The notes under the pieces were generated by a model. The model was not told the DNA's origin and searched no databases. It was given only the letters and a program-made list of their open reading frames with translations. The translations under genes were made by a program, and so were the position numbers. A stretch of 64,000 bases of DNA from a virus (taxonomy: Duplodnaviria > Heunggongvirae > Uroviricota > Caudoviricetes): IMG/VR virus record IMGVR_UViG_3300045988_005640. One strand, 5' to 3'. Position 1 is the first letter of the stretch. Every line of letters begins with the position of its first letter. Below, one piece after another: positions 11 through 24,215 of the stretch.

Positions 11-103
11 GGAAGATTAACCCTAAAAGGTAAGGGAGCAGTTTGCTAAACTGCCAGTAGCTGAGAAATCGGTGTACCAGTTCAAGTCTGGTATCTTCCT
101 CCA
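11..103 (+). tRNA. tRNA-Ser (anticodon GCU), type II with long variable arm
   Basis: Hand-folded cloverleaf: 7-bp acceptor ggaagat/atcttcc, anticodon stem gcagt/actgc with loop ttGCTaa, about 20-nt variable arm, T-arm accag-ttcaagt-ctggt, CCA encoded. Confidence 0.7.
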
Positions 104-107
104 ATTT

Positions 108-183
108 GAATCCGTGACAGAAATGGCTATGTGCCTGTCTGCAAAACAGGTTTATAAGGGTTCGAGTCCCTTCGGATTCTCCA
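108..183 (+). tRNA. tRNA-Cys (anticodon GCA)
   Basis: Hand-folded cloverleaf: acceptor gaatccg/cggattc, anticodon stem cctgt/acagg with loop ctGCAaa, T-arm aaggg-ttcgagt-ccctt, CCA encoded; 76 nt. Confidence 0.7.
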
Positions 184-2245: not shown

Positions 2246-3712
2246 ATGGCAGATATTACAGAAACACAAGAAAGCTTACCACCATTTAGAATGGGTGAAG
2301 TAGGTTCTTTGGGTCTGAAGGTTAAGAATGGAAGAATCTATGAAGAACCTCGTCAGGCACTAAGGTTCCCTGAAAGTATTAAAACTTTCCAATTAATGAT
2401 GCGTGACCCTGCTGTAGCAGCATCTGTAAATATTATTAAGATGTTTGTCAGAAAAGTCAACTGGAGATTCGTACCTCCAAAGGGAAAAGAGCAAGACCCT
2501 AAAATGCTTGAAAGAGCAGACTTCTTTAATTCTTTAATGGATGACATGGAGCATGATTGGGCAGATTTTATTAATTCTGTAATGTCATTCTGCACTTATG
2601 GGTTCTGTGTTAACGAGAAAGTTTATAAGAAGCGTCAGGGTAAAAAAGGAAAGTACCAGTCTAAATTTGATGATGGGCTAATTGGATGGGCTAAATTACC
2701 AATCAGAAACCAATCAACACTTGATAAGTGGTATTTTGACGAAGACTTTAGAAAAGTTACAGGTGTTAGGCAGAATCTGAGAAATGTTTCACATATTGCT
2801 GGAGCAATTAATCTCGGAGAAAGACCACTAACAAGAAAACTTCCACGAGCTAAATTCATGCTGTTCAAGTATGACGATGAATATGGAAATCCAGAAGGTC
2901 GTTCACCATTACTTAATGCTTATGTACCGTGGAAGTATAAAGTTCAGATTGAAGAGTATGAAGCTGTTGGTGTTTCAAGAGACTTGGTAGGTATGCCAAA
3001 GATTGGTTTGCCACCAGATTATCTTGATGAAAATGCAGAACCTGAAAAGAAAGCTTTCGTACAATACTGCAAGACTGTTGTTAATGATATGATTGCTAAC
3101 GACAGAGCAGGTTTAATCTGGCCTAGATATATTGACCCAGACACTAAAGAGGATATTTTTGAGTTCTCATTAGTTTCTAGACAGGGTGCTAAAGCATACG
3201 ATACAGGTTCTATTATTGACAGATATTCCAAGCAGATTATGATGGCATTTATGTCAGATGTTCTTGCTATGGGTCAGTCAAAATACGGTTCATTCTCTCT
3301 TGCAGATTCTAAGACAAGCTTACTAGCAATGTCAGTAGATATTCTGCTTAAGCAGATTAAGAACGTAATTAACCGTGATTTAGTTGCACAGACTTATGCT
3401 CTTAATATGTGGGATGATGAAGAACACGTACAAATTACATATGATGATATCGAAACTCCAGACCTTGAAGCAATTGGTTCTTATATTCAGAAAACTGTTG
3501 CAGTAGGTGCTTTGGAAGTTGACAAAGAACTATCTAACAAACTTAGAGAGCATATTGGTCTTCCTCCTGCTGATGAATCTCAGCCAGTATCTGAAAAGCT
3601 TTCTCCAAATAGTCAAAGCCGCTCAGGAGATGGTTATAAGACCGCTGGAGAAGGTACTGCAAAGACACCTTCAGCGAAAGACCCAAGCACAGCAAATAAG
3701 GCAAATAAATAA
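2246..3712 (+). CDS. Portal protein (by size and position)
   Basis: About 488-aa ORF immediately downstream of terminase; ATG at 2246 preferred over ORF-track GTG at 2237; no motif confirmed. Confidence 0.55.
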   Translation: MADITETQESLPPFRMGEVGSLGLKVKNGRIYEEPRQALRFPESIKTFQLMMRDPAVAASVNIIKMFVRKVNWRFVPPKGKEQDPKMLERADFFNSLMDDMEHDWADFINSVMSFCTYGFCVNEKVYKKRQGKKGKYQSKFDDGLIGWAKLPIRNQSTLDKWYFDEDFRKVTGVRQNLRNVSHIAGAINLGERPLTRKLPRAKFMLFKYDDEYGNPEGRSPLLNAYVPWKYKVQIEEYEAVGVSRDLVGMPKIGLPPDYLDENAEPEKKAFVQYCKTVVNDMIANDRAGLIWPRYIDPDTKEDIFEFSLVSRQGAKAYDTGSIIDRYSKQIMMAFMSDVLAMGQSKYGSFSLADSKTSLLAMSVDILLKQIKNVINRDLVAQTYALNMWDDEEHVQITYDDIETPDLEAIGSYIQKTVAVGALEVDKELSNKLREHIGLPPADESQPVSEKLSPNSQSRSGDGYKTAGEGTAKTPSAKDPSTANKANK

Positions 3713-4212
3713 TGGCTGAAGTTATCTCTATTTCAAATGCTACACGAGTGCATTCGTATAGAGGTGTTCTTATTATCACTGACAAATTATCTGTAGAGGC
3801 TGGCTCAAGGGTCAGCCTTTCAGGTTATGTAAGTGATGGTGGAACCTCTGACGTTTTCACTATTTGTAGGTTACTTGATGCTCCAATGAGTGGAAAACCG
3901 TTTATTTCAGGAAATTGTAGTGAAATTGTTAAAATTCCATTTGACAGTTCATGCCTTTTGGGTGTAAAGTTATATAACTGCGAGAATAAACGTATCAATG
4001 TTAATAGCATTGAAGCCGCTTTCATTACCCTCGACACTGCATTTCAATCTCCAATGACAGTTAATAAAGAAACAAACAGACTTGAATACATTTTTTCACA
4101 AAATGATTACAAAGTACTTGTCAAAGGTAAAGTATATTATATGATTGTAAATGTGGTAGATGAATCTGGTAACCATTCAACAGTCCTTAAACAAAAAGTA
4201 AGGTTTAATTAA
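3712..4212 (+). CDS. Hypothetical protein
   Basis: 166-aa ORF, ATGA-type junction with portal gene; unusual position between portal and protease. Confidence 0.35.
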   Translation: MAEVISISNATRVHSYRGVLIITDKLSVEAGSRVSLSGYVSDGGTSDVFTICRLLDAPMSGKPFISGNCSEIVKIPFDSSCLLGVKLYNCENKRINVNSIEAAFITLDTAFQSPMTVNKETNRLEYIFSQNDYKVLVKGKVYYMIVNVVDESGNHSTVLKQKVRFN

Positions 4213-4544
4213 TGGGAACATTAACTATTGATGGTAAGAACAAAATCCTCGCCACGCTAACCCCAACGACTATTATTTTACACAATGTAGACCCAACGGC
4301 AGACCCTACAGCAAATAAGGTTACTCAGCCAGTGGCTATTTATTTTTCTGAACCGGATAATGGCTTAATTGCCTCAGAAGACACAGTTAACATTACTGTC
4401 CCAGCTTCTGCAACGGTCTCACACTATAGCTTGTGGGATGCTAACGATAAATGCGTGGCAACTGGTGCTCTTAGCAAACCTCAATTCTTTGCTGAAGAAG
4501 GTATCTATGTTATCTCTTCAGTCTCTGTAGATTTAAACAAATAG
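4212..4544 (+). CDS. Hypothetical protein
   Basis: 110-aa ORF start-stop coupled to upstream gene. Confidence 0.35.
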   Translation: MGTLTIDGKNKILATLTPTTIILHNVDPTADPTANKVTQPVAIYFSEPDNGLIASEDTVNITVPASATVSHYSLWDANDKCVATGALSKPQFFAEEGIYVISSVSVDLNK

Positions 4545-4555
4545 GGTGAGTAAAA

Positions 4556-5902
4556 ATGAGTTCGAATATCTTCAGACTTGCTGATAGATTATTCAACCAA
4601 CCTTTACTAGCCACTGAATCATTAGCTCACTCAGCAGCAACTTATGTGAATAACAGATTGCTGGGTGATGTCCAAGCAGCAGTAAACTTTGATAAACCCA
4701 AAGGTGACGCAAGAAGTCTTTTAAAAGTAAAAGATGACATTGCTATTATCCCTATTATGGGTGGTTTAACTCATCGTATGACGTTCATTGATGCAATGTG
4801 TACAGGTGGATTAAGCTCTTATGAGGGTTTACGTAGAGGCTTTGACGAAGCTTTAGCAGATGAGTCAATCAAGACTATTGTTCTGCATATTGATTCTGGT
4901 GGTGGTGAAGCTTCAGGTTGCTTTGAATTAGCACGTCACATTATGGCTTCAAGAGGCCAAAAGAAAATTATTGCTTATGTAGATGAGTTCGCTTGTTCCG
5001 CTGCATACGCTCTTGCATCTTCTGCTGAAGAAATTATTGCATCACCAGATGCAGATGTTGGTTCTATTGGTGTAATCATGGTTCATCAGGAATTAACTAA
5101 GGCATTTGAAAAGAATGGCGTAACAATTAACGTCATCAAAGCTGGTGAGTTTAAAGGTATGGGTTCACCATTCCAAGCACTCTCAGAAGAAAGCAAAGAA
5201 AGACTTCAAAAGAGAATTAATGATACCTACGCAACCTTTACAGGTTTTGTAGCTGAAGCTCGTAATATCTCTGAAGAAGCTGTAAAGAATACTGAGGCGA
5301 ATGTTTATTCTGCTCAGGAAGCTCTTGAACTTGGTTTAATTAACTCAATCATGTCTCAAGATGATTTCTTAAATTACTTACAAGGTTCTGAAGAGGCTCC
5401 TGTAAGTTTAAACGTTAACAATTCAGGTGAAGAAATGACTGAACAAGAAAAGCAAGAACTAGAAGCTTTGCGTCTTCAGGTTGCTCAAATGAAAGCTAAA
5501 GAACAGGAAGCTGCTTTGTCAGATTTGACTAATAAGATTTCTGCTTCTGCTGAAGCTTTTGGGTTTGATGCAAAAGAAGCTGCAACGACTATTTTAGGTG
5601 CTGGTCTTGATAACCCTCTGAGCGTTCTGTTTATGAATGCTATGGAAGGTGCTAACCAGAAACTTAATGAAACTATCGCGTCCCATGCTTCTGCAATGGA
5701 AGAAAAAGAATCAGAAATTACCAAGCTGAAAGAAACTGCTGGTGCTGTTCTTGAACATTCCAACGCTATGGAAGAAGTGGGTAATGACGGCGAAGCTGAC
5801 TTGGTTGAAGAAGAAAAAGAACCAGCTAAAAATGCTTCCGAAGACACCGCTGAACAACGCAAACTGGCTCTCCAGAATGCTCTAAAATCTCTTATCAAAT
5901 AA
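4556..5902 (+). CDS. Prohead serine protease (S49/ClpP-like) fused to scaffold-like C-terminal domain
   Basis: N-terminal half has S49-type segments (IIPIMGGLTH, HIDSGGGEASG, YVDEFACSAAYALASSA, VGSIGVIM); C-terminal half is Glu/Ala/Lys-rich and predicted coiled coil. Confidence 0.65.
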   Translation: MSSNIFRLADRLFNQPLLATESLAHSAATYVNNRLLGDVQAAVNFDKPKGDARSLLKVKDDIAIIPIMGGLTHRMTFIDAMCTGGLSSYEGLRRGFDEALADESIKTIVLHIDSGGGEASGCFELARHIMASRGQKKIIAYVDEFACSAAYALASSAEEIIASPDADVGSIGVIMVHQELTKAFEKNGVTINVIKAGEFKGMGSPFQALSEESKERLQKRINDTYATFTGFVAEARNISEEAVKNTEANVYSAQEALELGLINSIMSQDDFLNYLQGSEEAPVSLNVNNSGEEMTEQEKQELEALRLQVAQMKAKEQEAALSDLTNKISASAEAFGFDAKEAATTILGAGLDNPLSVLFMNAMEGANQKLNETIASHASAMEEKESEITKLKETAGAVLEHSNAMEEVGNDGEADLVEEEKEPAKNASEDTAEQRKLALQNALKSLIK

Positions 5903-5913
5903 GGAACACAATA

Positions 5914-6291
5914 ATGGCATATCAAGGTTTTACTAAGTTAGGTAACAGAGAACCTCTGAATGATATCATTCTTTGGGAACAGATTACCCCAACAGGCCAC
6001 TCTCGTAAAGAGTACACTCCAGTTGCTTCAACAGAATACCGCGTAGGTGAAGTTCTGAAAGCAGATGGTACTAAGGTACAAGCTGGAGAAGAAGCCCAAG
6101 CAGACTCTGTATGTATCGTTAATTTCTACGCAGACCTGCAACTGTCTTATCATGGTCAGTTGAAAGTGGTAGGTATCCACCGTGATGCAGAACTGAAAGA
6201 CCTGCTAACTCTTGAATCAAGCGTTGATGCTACTGAAGTCAAGAAAGCTCTGGCTGCTAAAGGTATTGATTTCGTACCAACTGGCCTGTAA
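5914..6291 (+). CDS. Putative head decoration protein (lambda gpD-like position)
   Basis: 125-aa ORF between protease/scaffold and capsid gene; assignment by synteny only. Confidence 0.35.
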   Translation: MAYQGFTKLGNREPLNDIILWEQITPTGHSRKEYTPVASTEYRVGEVLKADGTKVQAGEEAQADSVCIVNFYADLQLSYHGQLKVVGIHRDAELKDLLTLESSVDATEVKKALAAKGIDFVPTGL

Positions 6292-6324
6292 TAACAATAA
6301 TAAGACATTCTGGAGAATTTTACA

Positions 6325-7431
6325 ATGTTGACTAATTCTGAAAAAAGCAGATTTTTCCTTGCTGACCTGACTGGTGAAGTCCAGTCTATCCCAAATACTT
6401 ATGGGTATATTTCCAACTTAGGTCTGTTCCGTTCAGCACCAATCACCCAAACTACTTTCCTTATGGACTTGACTGATTGGGATGTTAGCTTGCTTGATGC
6501 GGTAGACCGTGATAGCCGTAAAGCAGAGACTAGCGCACCTGAGCGTGTTCGTCAAATCAGCTTCCCAATGATGTACTTCAAAGAAGTTGAAAGCATTACT
6601 CCTGATGAGATTCAGGGTGTACGTCAGCCAGGCACTGCAAACGAACTGACTACTGAAGCTGTAGTACGTGCTAAGAAGCTGATGAAGATTCGTACCAAGT
6701 TCGATATTACTCGTGAGTTCCTGTTTATGCAAGCTCTGAAGGGTAAAGTTGTTGATGCTCGTGGTACTCTGTATGCTGACCTGTACAAGCAGTTCGACGT
6801 TGAGAAGAAGACTATTTACTTCGACCTTGACAATCCTAATGCTGACATTGACGCTGCTATTGAAGAACTGCGTATGCACATGGAAGACGAAGCTAAGACT
6901 GGCACTGTAATCAACGGTGAAGAAATTCACGTAGTTGTTGACCGCTTATTCTTCAGCAAACTGGTTAAACACCCTAAGATTCGTGACGCTTATCTTGCAC
7001 AGCAGACTCCGCTGGCTTGGCAACAGATTACTGGTTCTCTGAGAACTGGTGGTACTGACGGCGTTCAGGCTCACATGAACACTTTCTACTACGGTGGTGT
7101 TAAGTTTGTCCAGTACAACGGTAAGTTCAAAGACAAGCGTGGTAAGGTTCACACTCTGGTGAGTATTGATAGTGTAGCAGCAACTGTTGGTGTAGGTCAT
7201 GCTTTCCCTAACGTTTCTATGCTGGGTGAAGCAAACAACATCTTCGAAGTGGCATATGGTCCATGTCCTAAGATGGGTTATGCAAATACACTTGGTCAGG
7301 AACTGTACGTATTCGAATACGAAAAAGACCGTGACGAAGGTATTGACTTTGAAGCTCACTCTTACATGCTGCCATACTGCACACGTCCTCAGTTGCTGGT
7401 AGACGTTCGTTCTGACGCTAAACCAGACTAA
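6325..7431 (+). CDS. Major capsid protein (lambda gpE-like position)
   Basis: 368-aa ORF following protease-scaffold and decoration-like genes; assignment by size and synteny. Confidence 0.55.
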   Translation: MLTNSEKSRFFLADLTGEVQSIPNTYGYISNLGLFRSAPITQTTFLMDLTDWDVSLLDAVDRDSRKAETSAPERVRQISFPMMYFKEVESITPDEIQGVRQPGTANELTTEAVVRAKKLMKIRTKFDITREFLFMQALKGKVVDARGTLYADLYKQFDVEKKTIYFDLDNPNADIDAAIEELRMHMEDEAKTGTVINGEEIHVVVDRLFFSKLVKHPKIRDAYLAQQTPLAWQQITGSLRTGGTDGVQAHMNTFYYGGVKFVQYNGKFKDKRGKVHTLVSIDSVAATVGVGHAFPNVSMLGEANNIFEVAYGPCPKMGYANTLGQELYVFEYEKDRDEGIDFEAHSYMLPYCTRPQLLVDVRSDAKPD

Positions 7432-7452
7432 TATTCTTAAGGAGGGTTATGA

Positions 7453-7902
7453 ATGTGCTATACAGGCGACCCAGCCAATAACCCTCTTGATAGAGTAAGA
7501 ATCCTCTGCACAGACACCAATAATGATGAAATTCTTATTGAACAGTCTGTGCTAGAGTGGTTCTATCTAGAATCTGGAAAGGATGAAAAGAAAGCAGCCA
7601 TCAAAGCTCTTAAATATTTACTCTTTCAAGTAGCCAAGATGGGAGATGAGAAGGTTGGTGGTGTTTATTTACGTAACTCTTCCAGATTCAAATCTCTGAA
7701 AGCTGTTTATGACGACCTTGTTAAAAGCTCTGTTTCAGGACTACCCTATGCAGGTGGTATTAATCAGTGTGATATTGACATGCGTCGTCAGAATCCTTGC
7801 TCTGTCAAGAAATACACAGAATATGGTGATGCTGCCAGATACGAAGGCAGAGATTACTGCAACCGTGTTAATGGCGTATTTATTATCGAGCGAGATGAAT
7901 AA
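7453..7902 (+). CDS. Hypothetical protein (head-tail connector region)
   Basis: 149-aa ORF between capsid and tail genes. Confidence 0.3.
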   Translation: MCYTGDPANNPLDRVRILCTDTNNDEILIEQSVLEWFYLESGKDEKKAAIKALKYLLFQVAKMGDEKVGGVYLRNSSRFKSLKAVYDDLVKSSVSGLPYAGGINQCDIDMRRQNPCSVKKYTEYGDAARYEGRDYCNRVNGVFIIERDE

Positions 7903-11885: not shown

Positions 11886-19913
<8,028 letters not shown>

Positions 19914-19915
19914 TA

Positions 19916-21103
19916 ATGGCGGTAGGTGAAATTCAAATTAGTGCCTTGCCTCAAGCAGCCTTACCAATTGACCTTAGTGATATCTTCCATCTTAAGCAGG
20001 GTATTGAGGATAAGAGATGTACTCTTGAGCAATTACTTGCTCCACACTCAAGCCTAAGAAATAACCCTCATGGTGTTACTAAAACACAAATTGGTTTAGA
20101 TAACGTTATCAATGCTCTTCAGTTAGTTGCTGCAAATAACTTATCAGACGTTACTAATGTAGCTCAGGCAAGAGCAAATCTACAGATTATGTCTTCAGAA
20201 GAGGTTAATAATCTTGTTCAACAGCATATTCAGGACAAGAGCAACCCACATAATACAACTAAGGCACAGGTAGGATTGAGTAATGTTCAGAACTGGACAA
20301 CATCTAACCTTTATAACGAAGATGCAGATAAGTATGCTACAGCAAGAGCAGTAAATAACTTGTACAAGGCTGTTCAGGCTTCCTATCCAGTAGGTACTAT
20401 CCATCTTTCCATGAACTCTGCAAACCCTTCTACATATTTAATTTGTGGAGGTACTTGGGAGTTAGTTTCAAAGGGTAGAGCATTGGTTGGTTATGACTCT
20501 GACACAAGACCAGCAGGTTCTGTATTTGGTGCTTCAACTGTCACTTTGTCAGTTAATAACATGCCTCAACACTCTCACTCTGTGTCTCTTAGTGGTGGTG
20601 GTCATACTCATAATGCAACTGTGTCAATTTCAGCTTTTGACTATGGAACTAAGACTACCAACTCTTTTGACTATGGAACTAAGACCACTAACACAACTGG
20701 TAACCATAACCATGTTGGTAGTGGGTCAACAAGTTCTGCTGGTGCTCATAACCACAGATTGACCTATGAAGCAGGCGGTGGCCTATCGGAAAGACCTGCA
20801 ATGGTTTGGTCTACAAGGAATGACCAATCATGGTACTCAGCAGATGCTGTCTGTGAAGTAGCTGGTGCACACACCCACTCTTTCAGTGTTACCACTAATA
20901 CAACTGGTAACCACAACCATACAGTTGGTATTGGTGCTCACAGCCATACAGTTGGTATTGGTTCACATACACACAATGGCACTGTAACAGTTTCTTCTTC
21001 TGAGCATACGCATAGCGGGAACACTAACAGTGTTGGTGGTGGACAAGCTTTTAACATTGAGCAGCCATCCTTCGTACTGTATGTATGGCAGAGAACAGCT
21101 TAA
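19916..21103 (+). CDS. Tail fiber protein with His-x-His repeat tip
   Basis: 395 aa; C-terminal third packed with HxH motifs (HSHS, HTHN, HNHV, HNHR, HTHS, HNHT, HSHT) and Gly/Thr/Ser-rich repeats; C-terminus ...YVWQRTA. Confidence 0.6.
   Translation: MAVGEIQISALPQAALPIDLSDIFHLKQGIEDKRCTLEQLLAPHSSLRNNPHGVTKTQIGLDNVINALQLVAANNLSDVTNVAQARANLQIMSSEEVNNLVQQHIQDKSNPHNTTKAQVGLSNVQNWTTSNLYNEDADKYATARAVNNLYKAVQASYPVGTIHLSMNSANPSTYLICGGTWELVSKGRALVGYDSDTRPAGSVFGASTVTLSVNNMPQHSHSVSLSGGGHTHNATVSISAFDYGTKTTNSFDYGTKTTNTTGNHNHVGSGSTSSAGAHNHRLTYEAGGGLSERPAMVWSTRNDQSWYSADAVCEVAGAHTHSFSVTTNTTGNHNHTVGIGAHSHTVGIGSHTHNGTVTVSSSEHTHSGNTNSVGGGQAFNIEQPSFVLYVWQRTA
20635..20694 (+). repeat. In-frame 30-nt tandem duplication inside tail fiber gene
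   Basis: ttttgactatggaactaagactaccaactc followed by ttttgactatggaactaagaccactaacac (28/30 identical) encoding FDYGTKTTNS-FDYGTKTTNT. Confidence 0.8.
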
Positions 21104-21112
21104 TTTCTTTAC

Positions 21113-21134
21113 AGGGGCTTGATAGCCCCTTTTA
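21113..21134 (+). terminator. Putative terminator between tail fiber genes
   Basis: Stem aggggct/agcccct with loop tgat followed by tttt. Confidence 0.5.
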
Positions 21135-21149
21135 AGAGGAAAATTTATA

Positions 21150-23531
21150 ATGGCAGATTACAAGTTGAGTGAATTAAACTCAATCGATACAATCCGTTCA
21201 GACGACCTTCTTCATGTCAGGGTTAAAAAGAGACCTGAAATGCTGGGTGATGAAGACCGTCGAATGACCTATCAAGACTTCTTAGCATCTTTTAAACTTG
21301 AAAGATTTGTTCAGATTGCTGGTAGCACTATGGCGGGTGACTTAGGGATTGTTAAGCTACTTTATGGTGGTAAGGTAGTATTTGACCCTACAGGCTCTTC
21401 TGAGATTAATATTGGGGATGTTTTAAAGACTTTTAAAATTAACGCAAATGGTCTTAAACTAACTATTGCAGATGCTTCAAGGTCAGCAACTGTTTACCAT
21501 ACTCTGAATAAACCAAGTCCTAATGAGCTTGGGATGAGAACTAATGAAGAGAATGATGCGAGATACGCAAGGCTTGCTGTTACAAATAACTTCAGCATTA
21601 GACAAGCAATTGTAACTGATGGTGAGCAGTTAACCCTTAAGAAAGCAACCAATGCAGGTGCTTCATATATTCAAGGTAGGGATGCTAATAACCAGCAAAC
21701 TTGGTATGTTGGACAAGGAAATGCAAACAATACTAATGTCTATTTGTACAATCATGCCACTGGCTCAATGTTGACACTTGATGCAACAGCATCGTTTAAC
21801 AAGACACTAAGAGTTATGGGTCAAGTTCAACCTTCTGACTTCTCTAACTTAGATGCTAGGTACTTCACTCAGACAGTGGCTAATCAGAGATTTGCACAGT
21901 TAAATGCTAGTAATGTTCTTTATGGTGCTAATACATTTAAAAAAGATGTTGTATTTAACTCAGATATCCCTGTCATTCTTAAGAATCTAACAGCTAACAA
22001 ACCATTATATATTCTAGGTAGAGATGACCAAAACTCCAACTTGTGGTTTGTTGGTAAAGGTGGTTCGGGGACAGAGATTAAATTTTATAACTACTCTAGT
22101 GATACGGTTTTAGAGTTGTCTGAGACGGCAAGATTTAATAAAACTTTGAGGATTACTGGTCAAGTTCAACCTTCTGATTGGACTAACATTGACTCTAGAT
22201 ACATTCCAGCAGCCACTTTGAGTAATCTTGCTAAACTTAATGTGGCAAACACTTTCGTGAATGTGCAGACTATCGTATCAAATAACGAAGGTTTAGTATT
22301 AAGAAACTTGACACAGGGGCAACCACTATATATCCGTGGTGTGGATACCGCGAACGTATCGAGGTGGTGGTTAGGTGTAGGTGGCGCAAACTCTAATGTG
22401 GTAACCTTAAACAATAGTTACTCTGGTACTCAAATTGCCCTTGAACCATCAGCAATTGTTGCGAATAAGAATTTAGCCATTACTGGTAAAGTTCAACCTT
22501 CTGATTGGTCTAACTTAGATGCTAGATATTTTGTTAAAACTCAGTTATTAAACCAATCTTTAATGACTGTCTCTGTAGATAACCTTGGAAACCCTTCAGG
22601 TTTTAATCTTGGATATTCAGGTTTTGTCAGAAACAATGCGGTTACTAGTGGACTGAAAGAATTGGCAATTCATGTTGCGCACTCTAATAAGACTGCTGCA
22701 CATGCAAGAGGAATCTCTTTTGTGTATGGCTCAAATGGACTGGCAACATTTACCTATGCCTATGACAAAAATGGTGACTATGCTGGAGAAGCACAGATTT
22801 ATACAACTGATTTTAAACCAACCCCTTCAGATATTGGTGCATACACTAAAGCTGAAACTGACCAGAAGATTGCACAGGCAGTAAGTGACTCTACAGACCT
22901 TAACAAAATCTATCCAGTAGGTATTGTAACGTGGTTTAACAGTAACGTTAACCCTAATACAGCACTTCCTGGTCTAACTTGGACGTACCTGAACAATGGT
23001 GTTGGTAGAACTATCAGGATTGCAGCAGCAAATGGTTCAGATGTTGCTACAACAGGTGGTTCAGACTCTGTGACGTTAGCTGTTGGTAACTTACCTTCAC
23101 ACACTCATAGCTTCTCTGCTACCACTTCATCTTTTGATTATGGTACGAAGAGCACTAATAGTACTGGTGGTCATACTCACTCTGTAAGTGGTACAACAAG
23201 TGCTGCTGGTAACCACGCTCACCACTTAGGTCTGCTATTGGTTAATGGTGGTGATGCTCAGTACGGTTATACAACTGTTAGCAATAACAAGACAAGAACT
23301 CTTGACTGGCTTGACAGAACTGATAACAAATTCCCTAACACTAACACAACTGGTAACCATACACACACATGGTCTGGTACTACAAGTAACACTGGTGCTC
23401 ACACCCACTCTGTAGGTATCGGTGCTCACACTCATACAGTTAGTGGTAACACTGGTGGTACAGGTTCTGGTTCAGCATTTAGTGTTACTAACCAGTTCTA
23501 CAAGTTAATGGCTTGGGTAAGAACTGCTTAA
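21150..23531 (+). CDS. Large tail fiber protein with three internal repeats and His-x-His tip
   Basis: 793 aa; three repeats each containing GQVQPSD(F/W)(S/T)N(L/I)D(A/S)RY; C-terminal region with HTHS/HAHH/HTHT motifs and ending ...MAWVRTA, homologous in pattern to the preceding fiber tip. Confidence 0.6.
21780..22560 (+). repeat. Three tandem intragenic repeats of about 335 nt in fiber gene
   Basis: Conserved core ggtcaagttcaaccttctga at 21819, 22158 and (ggtaaagttcaaccttctga) 22495. Confidence 0.6.
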
Positions 23532-23610: not shown

Positions 23611-23805
23611 ATGCCTACAATCCTAGCAATTCTTCTAAAAAATCTAGGTAGCTTCTTCTGGAAACTCATTTTATCCCTTCTAAGTGAATACATGATTGAG
23701 AAAGTGTTCTTTAAGCTTGCAAGACACCTTGCGAGTAAAACAGACACACCTATTGATGATGAGTTCGTAGATAACTTAGAAAAAGCTTTTAAGGGGGAGA
23801 AATAA
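23611..23805 (+). CDS. Small protein with hydrophobic/amphipathic N-terminus
   Basis: 64-aa ORF; N-terminal ILAILLKNLGSFFWKLILSLL segment, acidic C-terminus. Confidence 0.3.
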   Translation: MPTILAILLKNLGSFFWKLILSLLSEYMIEKVFFKLARHLASKTDTPIDDEFVDNLEKAFKGEK

Positions 23806-24177
23806 ATGAAGTGGCTAGAGGAAGCTTTTAAAAATAATATTGGTGCAATTGTAGTTGGTATTTTTAGTGTTATTGGGATGTATACCACGATGCAGGTTTC
23901 AAGTGGTAAACAAGAAGTGTCTGTCACAACAAAGTTACAGCAGCTAGATAATTATTCCAAAAGTAACTATTCAGCTATTCGTGATTTACAGTCTGACATG
24001 AGACTGATTCAGCTAGGGATGGAGAACCAGAAAGTTCAGTTAGAGAATGTTAAGGGTGAAAACGCAAAACTTACCAAAACTCTTGATAAATTCTCTGACA
24101 GTGTGAATAATCTGGCTCAATCAGTATCAGCCCTCCAAGCTATTACTGAAAAGAACACAAAGAATACTGAAAAATAA
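23806..24177 (+). CDS. Single-pass membrane protein with coiled-coil domain
   Basis: 123 aa; predicted TM helix IGAIVVGIFSVIGMYTTM followed by heptad-like Gln/Leu/Asn-rich region. Confidence 0.35.
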   Translation: MKWLEEAFKNNIGAIVVGIFSVIGMYTTMQVSSGKQEVSVTTKLQQLDNYSKSNYSAIRDLQSDMRLIQLGMENQKVQLENVKGENAKLTKTLDKFSDSVNNLAQSVSALQAITEKNTKNTEK

Positions 24178-24182
24178 AGTTT

Positions 24183-24215
24183 AAGGCTCCTTTTTACGGG
24201 AGCCTTTTTTGTTTT
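24183..24215. terminator. Intrinsic terminator at convergent gene junction
   Basis: Stem aaggctcc/ggagcctt, then tttttt; sits between plus-strand gene end (24177) and minus-strand thyA end (24214). Confidence 0.6.

What the first reader, a model, noticed from the sequence alone, without database searches (positions are those of the whole stretch)
19916..23531. Two tail fibers sharing a His-x-His-rich C-terminal tip module
Both fiber proteins end in a region packed with HxH dipeptide repeats embedded in Gly/Thr/Ser-rich beta-like repeats (HTHS, HNHT, HSHT, HAHH and similar; SFDYGTK(T/S)TN(S/T)TG(N/G)H(N/T)H unit present in both) and share a C-terminal signature (...YVWQRTA and ...MAWVRTA). Colinear HxH motifs coordinate iron ions in the needle-like receptor-binding tip of the T4 long tail fiber. 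Two genes sharing this tip suggest a duplicated or exchanged receptor-binding module and possibly dual receptor specificity.
Basis: partly seen in the sequence, partly recalled or inferred. Interest (0 to 1): 0.55.

Follow-up and report, generated by a model that had tools for sequence, protein, structure and literature searches.

The report
Felix O1-type phage short and long tail fibers
These are the already described short and long tail fibers of a Felix O1-like coliphage; both end in the histidine-rich, metal-binding needle tip known from phage T4, so the finding is correct but ordinary.

Summary
Two adjacent + strand genes, 19916-21103 (395 aa) and 21150-23531 (793 aa), end in HxH-rich regions with 9 and 6 HxH motifs. 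Shuffling predicts about 1.4 and 0.4, and none of 20,000 shuffles reached the observed counts. The two C-terminal regions align at E=3e-22. Both match the crystal structure of the T4 gp37 receptor-binding tip (2XGF) at E=5e-26 and 6.5e-20. All seven iron-binding HxH motifs of T4 are in register in the short fiber, and six of seven in the long one.

The window is a Felixounavirus, about 95% nt identical to published phages. The genes are orthologues of Bas63 gp26 (short tail fiber) and gp27 (long tail fiber). A 2025 cryo-EM paper already describes their shared T4-like collar-needle-head tips and HxH motifs. The gp37 homology was reported in 2010 and 2015.

The two tips are old paralogues, not a recent duplication. 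Their needles are 65-71% identical, but their receptor-contacting heads are unrelated (13%). That fits two ligands.

One modest addition: the long fiber's distal needle and head cassette (23125-23440) is 85-87% nt identical to gp37 of some T4-like phages, and the breakpoints fall at HxH boxes. Novelty: already known. Interest is low.

The parts
19611..19913 (+). Gene for the 100-aa long-tail-fiber platform, orthologue of Bas63 gp25. It is the baseplate attachment point for the long fiber.
   Evidence: 99% aa identity to Bas63 gp25 and the same gene order. The role is taken from PMC12609058. It has no Pfam hit and matches phrog_4141.
19916..21103 (+). Short tail fiber gene (STF, 395 aa), orthologue of Bas63 gp26, Felix O1 gp76 and VpaE1 gp74.
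   Evidence: ORF. 74.6% identity to Bas63 gp26, with the first 40 aa identical. phrog_2097 tail fiber at E=1e-136. 2XGF at E=5e-26.
20366..20569 (+). STF collar domain (aa ~151-218), a gp10/gp37-collar-like fold that ends at ...NNMPQ just before the first HxH.
   Evidence: Pfam Gp10_C at 67.5 bits against a cutoff of 27, residues 154-261. Aligns to the collar region of T4 gp37 and to T4 gp10.
20570..20755 (+). STF descending needle strand (aa 219-280) with four HxH motifs (219, 230, 264, 278) and two FDYGTKTTN repeats. The repeats are a 30-nt tandem duplication at 20634-20692.
   Evidence: Tandem repeat of 30 nt x2, 93% matches.
20756..20869 (+). STF head segment (aa 281-318, RLTYEAGGGLSERPAMVWSTRNDQSWYSADAVCEVAGA). 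It is the hypervariable, presumed receptor-contacting loop at the turn of the needle.
   Evidence: It lies between the motifs aligned to T4 H929xH931 and H966xH968. Similarity to Bas63 and finno breaks at 20686-20901. This allele is found in 32 Felixounavirus-type records only.
20870..21013 (+). STF ascending needle strand (aa 319-366) with five HxH motifs (319, 333, 342, 351, 364). It contains 27-nt tandem rungs at 20905-20962.
21014..21103 (+). STF C-terminal return segment (aa 367-395, SGNTNSVGGGQAFNIEQPSFVLYVWQRTA) and the stop codon.
   Evidence: Conserved in all STF orthologues and alignable with T4 ...[20 protein letters not shown].
21150..23531 (+). Long tail fiber gene (LTF, 793 aa), orthologue of Bas63 gp27, Felix O1 gp77 and VpaE1 gp75.
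   Evidence: ORF. phrog_4277 at 1241.6 bits over the full length. 60.8% identity to Bas63 gp27, with the ends 95-100% identical. 2XGF at E=6.5e-20.
21582..22559 (+). LTF shaft with three ~110-aa repeats (Pfam gp37_trimer x3, resembling the T7 gp17 pyramid). This is a second hypervariable zone among relatives.
   Evidence: Pfam PF20744 at E=5e-66, three stretches. DNA repeat family D1 with spacing of 339 and 327 nt. 4A0T at E=1e-3. Identity to relatives drops over about 21586-22815.
22899..23099 (+). LTF collar domain (aa ~584-650).
   Evidence: Aligns with the STF collar at 34% identity and with the T4 collar. Pfam Gp10_C scores only 23.2 bits, below the cutoff of 27.
23100..23222 (+). LTF descending needle strand (aa 651-691) with three HxH motifs (651, 675, 689 as HAHH) and one FDYGTK repeat.
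23223..23357 (+). LTF head segment (aa 692-736, [45 protein letters not shown]), the presumed receptor-contacting loop. It is unrelated to the STF head.
   Evidence: 13% identity to the STF head. Similarity to Bas63, Felix O1, AYO145A, finno and BPS17W1 is lost between about 23180-23216 and 23336-23406.
23358..23435 (+). LTF ascending needle strand (aa 737-762) with three HxH motifs (737, 751, 760).
   Evidence: The equivalent of T4 H998xH1000 is absent.
23436..23531 (+). LTF C-terminal return segment (aa 763-793, ...[29 protein letters not shown]) and the stop codon.
   Evidence: Nearly invariant among LTF orthologues.
23125..23440 (+). Distal needle plus head cassette of the LTF, shared with gp37 of a subset of T4-like phages (Tequatrovirus AV122, SHBML-50-1, BYEP01, sutha).
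   Evidence: blastn gives 87.0% (AV122) and 84.8% (SHBML-50-1) identity over 316 nt. The strictly variable core 23217-23391 is 85.5-85.9% identical to them, but does not align to T4, Felix O1, Bas63 or VpaE1. tblastn gives 81-86% aa identity.
24183..24206 (.). Bidirectional terminator-like hairpin that closes the fiber/late gene block, just before the convergent thymidylate synthase gene.
   Evidence: An equivalent annotated terminator exists in AYO145A.

Best explanation
The two genes encode the short (STF) and long (LTF) tail fibers of a Felix O1-like myophage (genus Felixounavirus). Each is inferred to be a homotrimer anchored to the baseplate by its N-terminus: the STF on a wedge protein, and the LTF on the gp25-like platform encoded just upstream. 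Each ends in a receptor-binding tip of the T4 gp37 type. In that tip a collar domain is followed by a needle. The chain runs down the needle, turns in a small head, and runs back up to the collar, so the needle has six strands. Each HxH motif from the three chains forms an octahedral site for a metal ion, which is iron in T4. That gives 9 predicted sites in the STF and 6 in the LTF. The conserved HxH and FDYGTK rungs form a rigid scaffold. The hypervariable head between the last descending and first ascending HxH contacts the receptor, most likely LPS core sugars. The two heads in this phage are unrelated, so the two fibers probably read different ligands in a two-step adsorption, as in T4: the LTF first and reversibly, then the STF. 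The repeated His-box coding sequence also provides homology for recombination that swaps head cassettes between phages, and in Felix O1 between the two fibers. Shown here: homology, motif register, orthology and mosaic structure. Inferred: trimer topology (from the published orthologue), metal occupancy, the receptors and the order of binding.
For: Identity of the phage: 95% nt identity to Felixounavirus genomes, gene order identical to Bas63, and flanking baseplate proteins 96-99% identical to Bas63. Homology to the solved T4 tip: E=5e-26 and 6.5e-20, plus Pfam Gp10_C and gp37_trimer. The seven T4 HxH motifs (883, 915, 929, 966, 980, 989, 998) align with STF 219, 264, 278, 319, 333, 342 and 351, and with LTF 651, 675, 689, 737, 751 and 760. 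T4 H929 and H931 are iron ligands, and seven irons line the T4 needle (PMC6957217). Cryo-EM with AlphaFold fitting of Bas63 shows both fibers on the baseplate with collar-needle-head tips (PMC12609058). Head segments are 13% identical while the needles are 65-71% identical. Variation among relatives is concentrated in the heads, with breakpoints at His boxes. A cross-family cassette is 85-87% nt identical to Tequatrovirus gp37. AV122, which carries that cassette, depends on the LPS outer core (PMC10844046). Bas63 and VpaE1 also depend on the LPS core (PMC8594841; PMC4690856).
Against: There is no direct evidence for metal binding, trimerisation or receptor identity for these exact alleles. The fiber density in Bas63 was too weak to model side chains. 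The STF has two HxH motifs with no T4 counterpart, and the LTF lacks one, so site occupancy is extrapolated. T4 gp37 needs the gp38 chaperone, and no gp38 homologue is found in the window (best E=0.2). Folding may therefore differ. In Felix O1 the two heads are nearly identical, so two ligands is not a general rule for the genus.
Confidence: 0.85

Rival explanations
1. The two fibers are redundant adhesins for the same receptor. On this view the shared tip means shared specificity, and the second fiber only adds avidity.
For: In Felix O1 the STF and LTF carry almost the same distal needle and head, at 81% nt identity over 270 nt. Felixounaviruses are generally reported to use only the LPS core.
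Against: In this window the head segments are unrelated, with 13% identity and different lengths. Each head allele has its own distribution: the LTF head is also found in T4-like phages, while the STF head is found only in Felixounavirus-type records.
Confidence: 0.12
2. The shared tip arose by a recent duplication or gene conversion between the two genes within this genome.
For: Both genes are adjacent and end in alignable tips. Such intragenomic exchange is visible in Felix O1.
Against: Protein identity is only 35%. The best nucleotide matches between the two genes are 75% over 81 nt and short rung repeats. Both genes have separate orthologues throughout Ounavirinae, including Mooglevirus, and the STF also in Kolesnikvirus.
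Confidence: 0.02
3. The HxH boxes matter mainly as conserved DNA and peptide linkers for recombination and beta-strand packing. They do not hold iron in these fibers: either there is no metal, or a different metal such as zinc or nickel.
For: Recombination breakpoints coincide with His boxes. The number and placement of HxH motifs vary among orthologues: 4 to 7 in LTFs and 6 to 9 in STFs. That suggests tolerance to loss of individual sites.
Against: All motifs aligned to T4 correspond to crystallographic iron sites. Alanine substitution of T4 H929 or H931 abolishes plaque formation (PMC6957217). The two roles are not mutually exclusive.
Confidence: 0.08

Closest known systems
Bas63 (Escherichia phage JohannRWettstein) gp26 short tail fiber and gp27 long tail fiber, from cryo-EM (PMC12609058, 2025)
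   Same: Same genus, gene order and flanking baseplate genes, which are 96-99% identical. The N-terminal 40 residues of both fibers are identical. Both have the same collar-needle-head tip with HxH motifs and the same invariant C-termini.
   Different: The tip alleles differ: overall identity is 74.6% for the STF and 60.8% for the LTF. The window's STF has 9 HxH motifs (4 descending, 5 ascending) against 7 in Bas63 (2 descending, 5 ascending). The head segments of both fibers are unrelated alleles. The LTF has HAHH where Bas63 has HHxH.
T4 gp37 receptor-binding tip (PDB 2XGF)
   Same: Significant sequence homology at E=5e-26 and 6.5e-20. The collar is shared, as are the FDYGTK rungs and seven (STF) or six (LTF) HxH motifs in register with the iron sites. 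The C-terminus returns to the collar, with the shared ...AF...R(T/L)A ending.
   Different: The tip sits on a single-protein fiber of 395 or 793 aa, not at the end of the four-protein T4 long fiber. No gp38 chaperone gene is adjacent or detectable in the window. The STF has two extra HxH motifs and the LTF has one fewer. The head sequences differ from T4.
gp37 of Tequatrovirus AV122 and SHBML-50-1 (T4-type adhesin with gp38 chaperone)
   Same: The distal needle and head cassette is 85-87% nt and about 90% aa identical to the window's LTF residues ~659-764. AV122 depends on the LPS outer core.
   Different: Everything outside the cassette is unrelated: the shaft, collar sequence and C-terminal tail. 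The T-even versions have three FDYGTK-type rungs and two more ascending HxH rungs. They also have a gp38 gene downstream.
Felix O1 gp76/gp77 and VpaE1 gp74/gp75 (PMC3185647, 2010; PMC4690856, 2015)
   Same: These are orthologous gene pairs. The gp37 homology of both C-termini was already reported in those papers.
   Different: Felix O1 has the same head in both fibers. The VpaE1 and AYO145A LTFs carry a head almost identical to T4's own. The window carries a third combination.
T4 gp12 short tail fiber
   Same: It has a comparable proposed role as the second, shorter set of baseplate fibers. Its tip also carries a histidine-bound metal; this rests on my own knowledge and was not tested here.
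   Different: There is no detectable sequence match to gp12 in the PDB search. The window's STF resembles a shortened LTF with a gp37-type tip, as PMC12609058 notes for Bas63.

Membership tests
T4 gp37-type receptor-binding tip (collar-needle-head; PDB 2XGF) | Significant sequence similarity to the solved tip across the collar, needle and head region | tested here: met
   phmmer against PDB. STF residues 146-367 match 2XGF chain positions 18-228 at E=5.1e-26. LTF residues 649-772 match positions 105-218 at E=6.5e-20.
T4 gp37-type receptor-binding tip (collar-needle-head; PDB 2XGF) | Collar domain of the gp10/gp11/gp12 type preceding the needle | tested here: met
   In the STF, Pfam Gp10_C scores 67.5 bits against a cutoff of 27, and T4 gp10 structures hit at E=2e-5. 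In the LTF, Gp10_C scores 23.2 bits, below the cutoff, but the region aligns with the STF and T4 collars (YPVG...G.TW...).
T4 gp37-type receptor-binding tip (collar-needle-head; PDB 2XGF) | A series of HxH motifs in register with the seven iron-coordinating motifs of T4 (883, 915, 929 descending; 966, 980, 989, 998 ascending) | tested here: met
   The STF has 7 of 7 in register plus two extra (230, 364). The LTF has 6 of 7 and lacks the equivalent of 998.
T4 gp37-type receptor-binding tip (collar-needle-head; PDB 2XGF) | Intertwined homotrimer in which the chain runs down, turns in the head and returns to the collar, giving a six-stranded needle | not testable with these tools
   The structure tool predicts only monomers. 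The topology is inferred from colinear alignment with 2XGF and from the cryo-EM and AlphaFold 3 description of the Bas63 orthologues.
T4 gp37-type receptor-binding tip (collar-needle-head; PDB 2XGF) | Metal ions (Fe) bound by the HxH rings | not testable with these tools
   This needs ICP-MS, X-ray fluorescence or a structure. It is known for T4 only (PMC6957217).
T4 gp37-type receptor-binding tip (collar-needle-head; PDB 2XGF) | Dedicated gp38-type assembly chaperone encoded next to the fiber gene. This is typical of T4-like phages and is not a structural criterion. | tested here: not met
   tblastn of T4 gp38 against the whole window gives a best E of 0.2. The downstream genes are 64-aa and 123-aa membrane-anchored proteins with no chaperone signature. 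Only 64 kb of a genome of about 87 kb is visible.
Felixounavirus STF/LTF pair (Bas63 gp26/gp27) | Position in the conserved order wedge 2, wedge 1, LTF platform, STF, LTF, two small genes, then convergent thymidylate synthase | tested here: met
   Window ORFs compared with the Bas63, Felix O1, VpaE1, AYO145A and Sf14 annotations.
Felixounavirus STF/LTF pair (Bas63 gp26/gp27) | Conserved N-terminal baseplate-binding region and conserved C-terminal tail | tested here: met
   The first 40 aa are 100% identical to Bas63 in both fibers, and the last ~30 aa are 71-97% identical. The C-termini are nearly invariant across 11 phages.
T4 gp12-type short tail fiber | Sequence similarity to gp12 | tested here: not met
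   No gp12 chain appears among PDB hits at E<=1 for either protein. 'Short tail fiber' here names a position and role, not gp12 homology.

The most novel reading that the evidence does not exclude
The head plus distal needle of the long fiber is a portable host-range cassette that moves between unrelated phage families, here Felixounavirus LTF and Tequatrovirus gp37. It moves by recombination at the His-box and FDYGTK coding repeats. It folds and works in a fiber that has no gp38 chaperone. If so, the T4-type tip is chaperone-independent in this scaffold, and head cassettes could be transplanted across families to retarget phages.
Probability: 0.45. Interest if true: 0.35.

Novelty: already known. 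Interest (0 to 1): 0.15.

Why it matters
As stated, the finding adds nothing new. The gp37-like C-termini of both Felix O1-type fibers were reported in 2010 and 2015. Their shared collar-needle-head tip with HxH motifs was described structurally in 2025. These exact alleles occur in about 30 deposited phage genomes. The practical value is in annotation: it says which gene is the short fiber and which the long, and where the receptor-contacting heads lie. The cassette map also has some use. It shows that head segments bounded by His boxes are swapped within the genus, between the two fibers of one phage, and with T4-like phages. That is helpful for anyone engineering the host range of Felix O1-like therapeutic phages.

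Tried and rejected
1. Recent duplication between the two genes. Rejected: there are only short rung-level DNA matches of 62-87% over 14-81 nt.
2. A gp38-like chaperone in the window. None was found.
3. Function of the two small downstream ORFs. Pfam gives nothing above cutoff, and PHROGs assigns them to families of unknown function.
4. A promoter or terminator between the two fiber genes. The scan found none above background in the window, although AYO145A annotates a terminator there.
5. Reading Bartual et al. 2010, the 2XGF paper. It is not held in the library, so domain and iron details were taken from PMC6957217 and PMC12609058.
6. Structure prediction was not run. The tool folds monomers only, and this tip is an intertwined trimer. 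The sequence match to 2XGF made a monomer model uninformative.
7. The large protein-database searches were not used, because the annotated phage collection already answered the question.
8. Three accession guesses were needed to locate the Bas63 record.
Full report
**What is there**

The window carries two adjacent + strand ORFs at exactly the reported coordinates: 19916-21103 (395 aa) and 21150-23531 (793 aa). The 3.6-kb stretch is about 95% identical at the nucleotide level to many deposited Felixounavirus (Felix O1-like myophage) genomes, where the genes are annotated as tail fiber proteins.

The gene order matches Bas63, Felix O1, VpaE1, AYO145A and Sf14:
- baseplate wedge proteins of 489 aa and 288 aa;
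- a 100-aa protein;
- the two fibers;
- two small ORFs;
- convergent thymidylate synthase and dihydrofolate reductase genes.

The flanking baseplate proteins are 96-99% identical to Bas63. The fibers are 74.6% and 60.8% identical to Bas63 gp26 and gp27, and the first 40 residues of each are identical. The genes are therefore the orthologues of Bas63 gp26 (short tail fiber, STF) and gp27 (long tail fiber, LTF).

**The observation**

- The STF has 9 HxH motifs, starting at residues 219, 230, 264, 278, 319, 333, 342, 351 and 364.
- The LTF has 6, starting at residues 651, 675, 689, 737, 751 and 760.
- Shuffling each protein gives means of 1.4 and 0.43 motifs. None of 20,000 shuffles reaches the observed count.
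- The quoted SFDYGTK...H.H units and the ...YVWQRTA and ...MAWVRTA ends are present.
- BLASTP aligns STF 136-346 with LTF 561-764 at 35% identity, E=3e-22.

**What it is**

Both proteins match the crystal structure of the T4 gp37 receptor-binding tip (PDB 2XGF). The STF matches at E=5.1e-26 across the collar, needle and head. The LTF matches at E=6.5e-20 across the needle and head. Pfam finds the gp10-type collar domain in the STF above threshold, and in the LTF just below threshold. It also finds three gp37_trimer repeats in the LTF shaft.

T4 gp37 has seven HxH motifs in its needle, at 883, 915, 929, 966, 980, 989 and 998. Seven iron atoms line that needle, and H929 and H931 are iron ligands essential for function (PMC6957217). 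The motifs line up as follows in a multiple alignment:

| T4 gp37 | STF | LTF |
|---|---|---|
| 883 | 219 | 651 |
| none | 230 (extra) | none |
| 915 | 264 | 675 |
| 929 | 278 | 689 |
| 966 | 319 | 737 |
| 980 | 333 | 751 |
| 989 | 342 | 760 |
| 998 | 351 | missing |
| none | 364 (extra) | none |

The two extra STF motifs both lie at the collar-proximal end of the needle. The rungs are short tandem repeats at the DNA level: 30 nt x2 encoding FDYGTKTTN, and 27 nt x2.1 encoding G.H.HTVGI.

**It is already described**

- Whichard et al. 2010 reported that the C-termini of both Felix O1 gp76 and gp77 resemble T4 gp37 (PMC3185647). The RefSeq record names ORF76 'Putative tail fiber protein GP37'.
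- Šimoliūnas et al. 2015 reported the same for VpaE1 gp74 and gp75 (PMC4690856).
- The 2025 cryo-EM study of Bas63 places both fibers on the baseplate, the STF on wedge 2 and the LTF on the gp25 platform. [quoted passage not shown] - The Sf14 study proposes that the two fiber types may bind different receptors (PMC11821841).
- The exact tip alleles of the window are 98-100% identical at the protein level to those of NRG857CP1, LF82P5, LF110P2 and others. They occur in about 30 deposited genomes.

**Duplicated or exchanged?**

The two tips are old paralogues. Segment by segment, STF against LTF:

| Segment | Protein identity |
|---|---|
| Collar | 34% |
| Descending needle | 71% |
| Head | 13% |
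| Ascending needle | 65% |
| C-terminal tail | 45% |

At the DNA level only short rung-sized matches exist, at most about 75% over 81 nt. A recent duplication or conversion between the two genes in this genome is therefore excluded.

Exchange of the head cassette is nevertheless real in this family.

1. Comparison with eight relatives shows that similarity is lost precisely over the heads. For the STF the gap is about 20686-20901. For the LTF it runs from about 23180-23216 to 23336-23406. The breakpoints fall in the His-box rungs. A second variable zone covers the LTF shaft repeats.
2. In Felix O1 the STF and LTF share the same distal needle and head, at 81% nt identity over 270 nt.
3. The VpaE1 and AYO145A LTFs carry a head almost identical to that of T4 itself.
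4. The window's LTF cassette (23125-23440) is 87.0% and 84.8% nt identical over 316 nt to gp37 of the T4-like phages AV122 and SHBML-50-1. The strictly variable core 23217-23391 is 85.5-85.9% identical to them. It does not align to T4, Felix O1, Bas63 or VpaE1.

The two families share no other sequence here, so point 4 indicates horizontal transfer of the cassette. Recombination at conserved His boxes in T-even adhesins is an old idea (Tétart, Krisch and co-workers, 1996-1998). I cite that from my own knowledge; those papers are not in the library. I found no paper in the held library that describes the Felixounavirus-Tequatrovirus cassette explicitly. It is a new example of a known process.

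**How it most likely works**

Each fiber is inferred to be a homotrimer. The conserved rungs and their metal rings would make a stiff needle. The head at the turn would contact the receptor.

Felixounaviruses depend on the LPS core. AV122, the T-even phage with the same LTF head, fails on waaC and waaR mutants, so it depends on the outer core (PMC10844046). The LTF head therefore probably reads an outer-core epitope. The STF head is a different allele, found only in Felixounavirus-type records, and probably reads something else.

This would give a two-step adsorption, as proposed for Bas63 by analogy with T4. These last steps are inference.

One open point is folding. T4 gp37 needs gp38, and no gp38 homologue is detectable in the window.

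**Verdict**

- The T4 analogy is correct and is true homology.
- 'Duplicated' is true only in the sense of ancient paralogy.
- 'Exchanged' is true for the head cassettes, but not between these two genes.
- 'Dual specificity' is plausible and untested.

The feature is already known, and interest is low.

Noticed in passing
window 23125-23440 (L017 3373-3688; L016 equivalent): The long fiber's distal needle and head is 85-87% nt identical to gp37 of Tequatrovirus AV122 and SHBML-50-1, although the two phage families are otherwise unrelated. The boundaries fall at the FDYGTK and His-box repeats.
   Followed up: yes
L015 (Felix O1) 3901-5067 vs 5118-7466: In Felix O1 itself the short and long fibers carry nearly the same distal needle and head (81% nt over 270 nt; GGRYGGDSIGGKHRV.VSGTEQVSSVAGDHSHT). 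This indicates exchange between the two genes of one genome, unlike in the window.
   Followed up: partly
L008 (VpaE1) 2720-5074 and L010 (AYO145A) 4006-6369: The long fibers of VpaE1 and AYO145A have a head and distal needle almost identical to T4 gp37 ([29 protein letters not shown]...NTNAAGNHSHTFSF). VpaE1, like T4, uses the truncated LPS of E. coli B.
   Followed up: partly
window 23611-23805 and 23806-24177: Two small conserved ORFs follow the long fiber gene. One is 64 aa with a hydrophobic N-terminus. The other is 123 aa with an N-terminal hydrophobic segment and a coiled-coil-like remainder. Some records call the second a 'holin', but Pfam and PHROGs give no supported function. By position they are the only candidates for fiber assembly helpers.
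   Followed up: partly
window 21582-22559: The long fiber shaft contains three ~110-aa repeats (Pfam gp37_trimer x3). They weakly resemble the T7 gp17 pyramid domain (4A0T, E=1e-3). This is the second most variable part of the gene among relatives.
   Followed up: partly
window 19916-20050 and 21150-21290: The N-termini of the two fibers share a short motif: G.EDKRCTLEQLLA in the short fiber and [14 protein letters not shown] in the long one. This is the same Cys/Met difference noted for Sf14 gp52 and gp53. The BLAST alignment of this region is not significant on its own (E=2.3).
   Followed up: no
window 24183-24206: A bidirectional terminator-like hairpin (AAGGCTCC...GGAGCCTT, with T-runs on both sides) lies between the late structural block and the convergent thymidylate synthase and dihydrofolate reductase genes.
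   Followed up: no
window 11-183: Two tRNA genes (Ser-GCT and Cys-GCA) lie at the very start of the window. This is probably the end of the tRNA cluster typical of Felix O1-like genomes.
   Followed up: no
search hit H61 (OK283618.1, 'Listeria phage LPML1', 14498-15259): A record labelled as a Listeria phage (87 kb) encodes a short-fiber tip 39% identical to the window's across the full query length.
   Followed up: no
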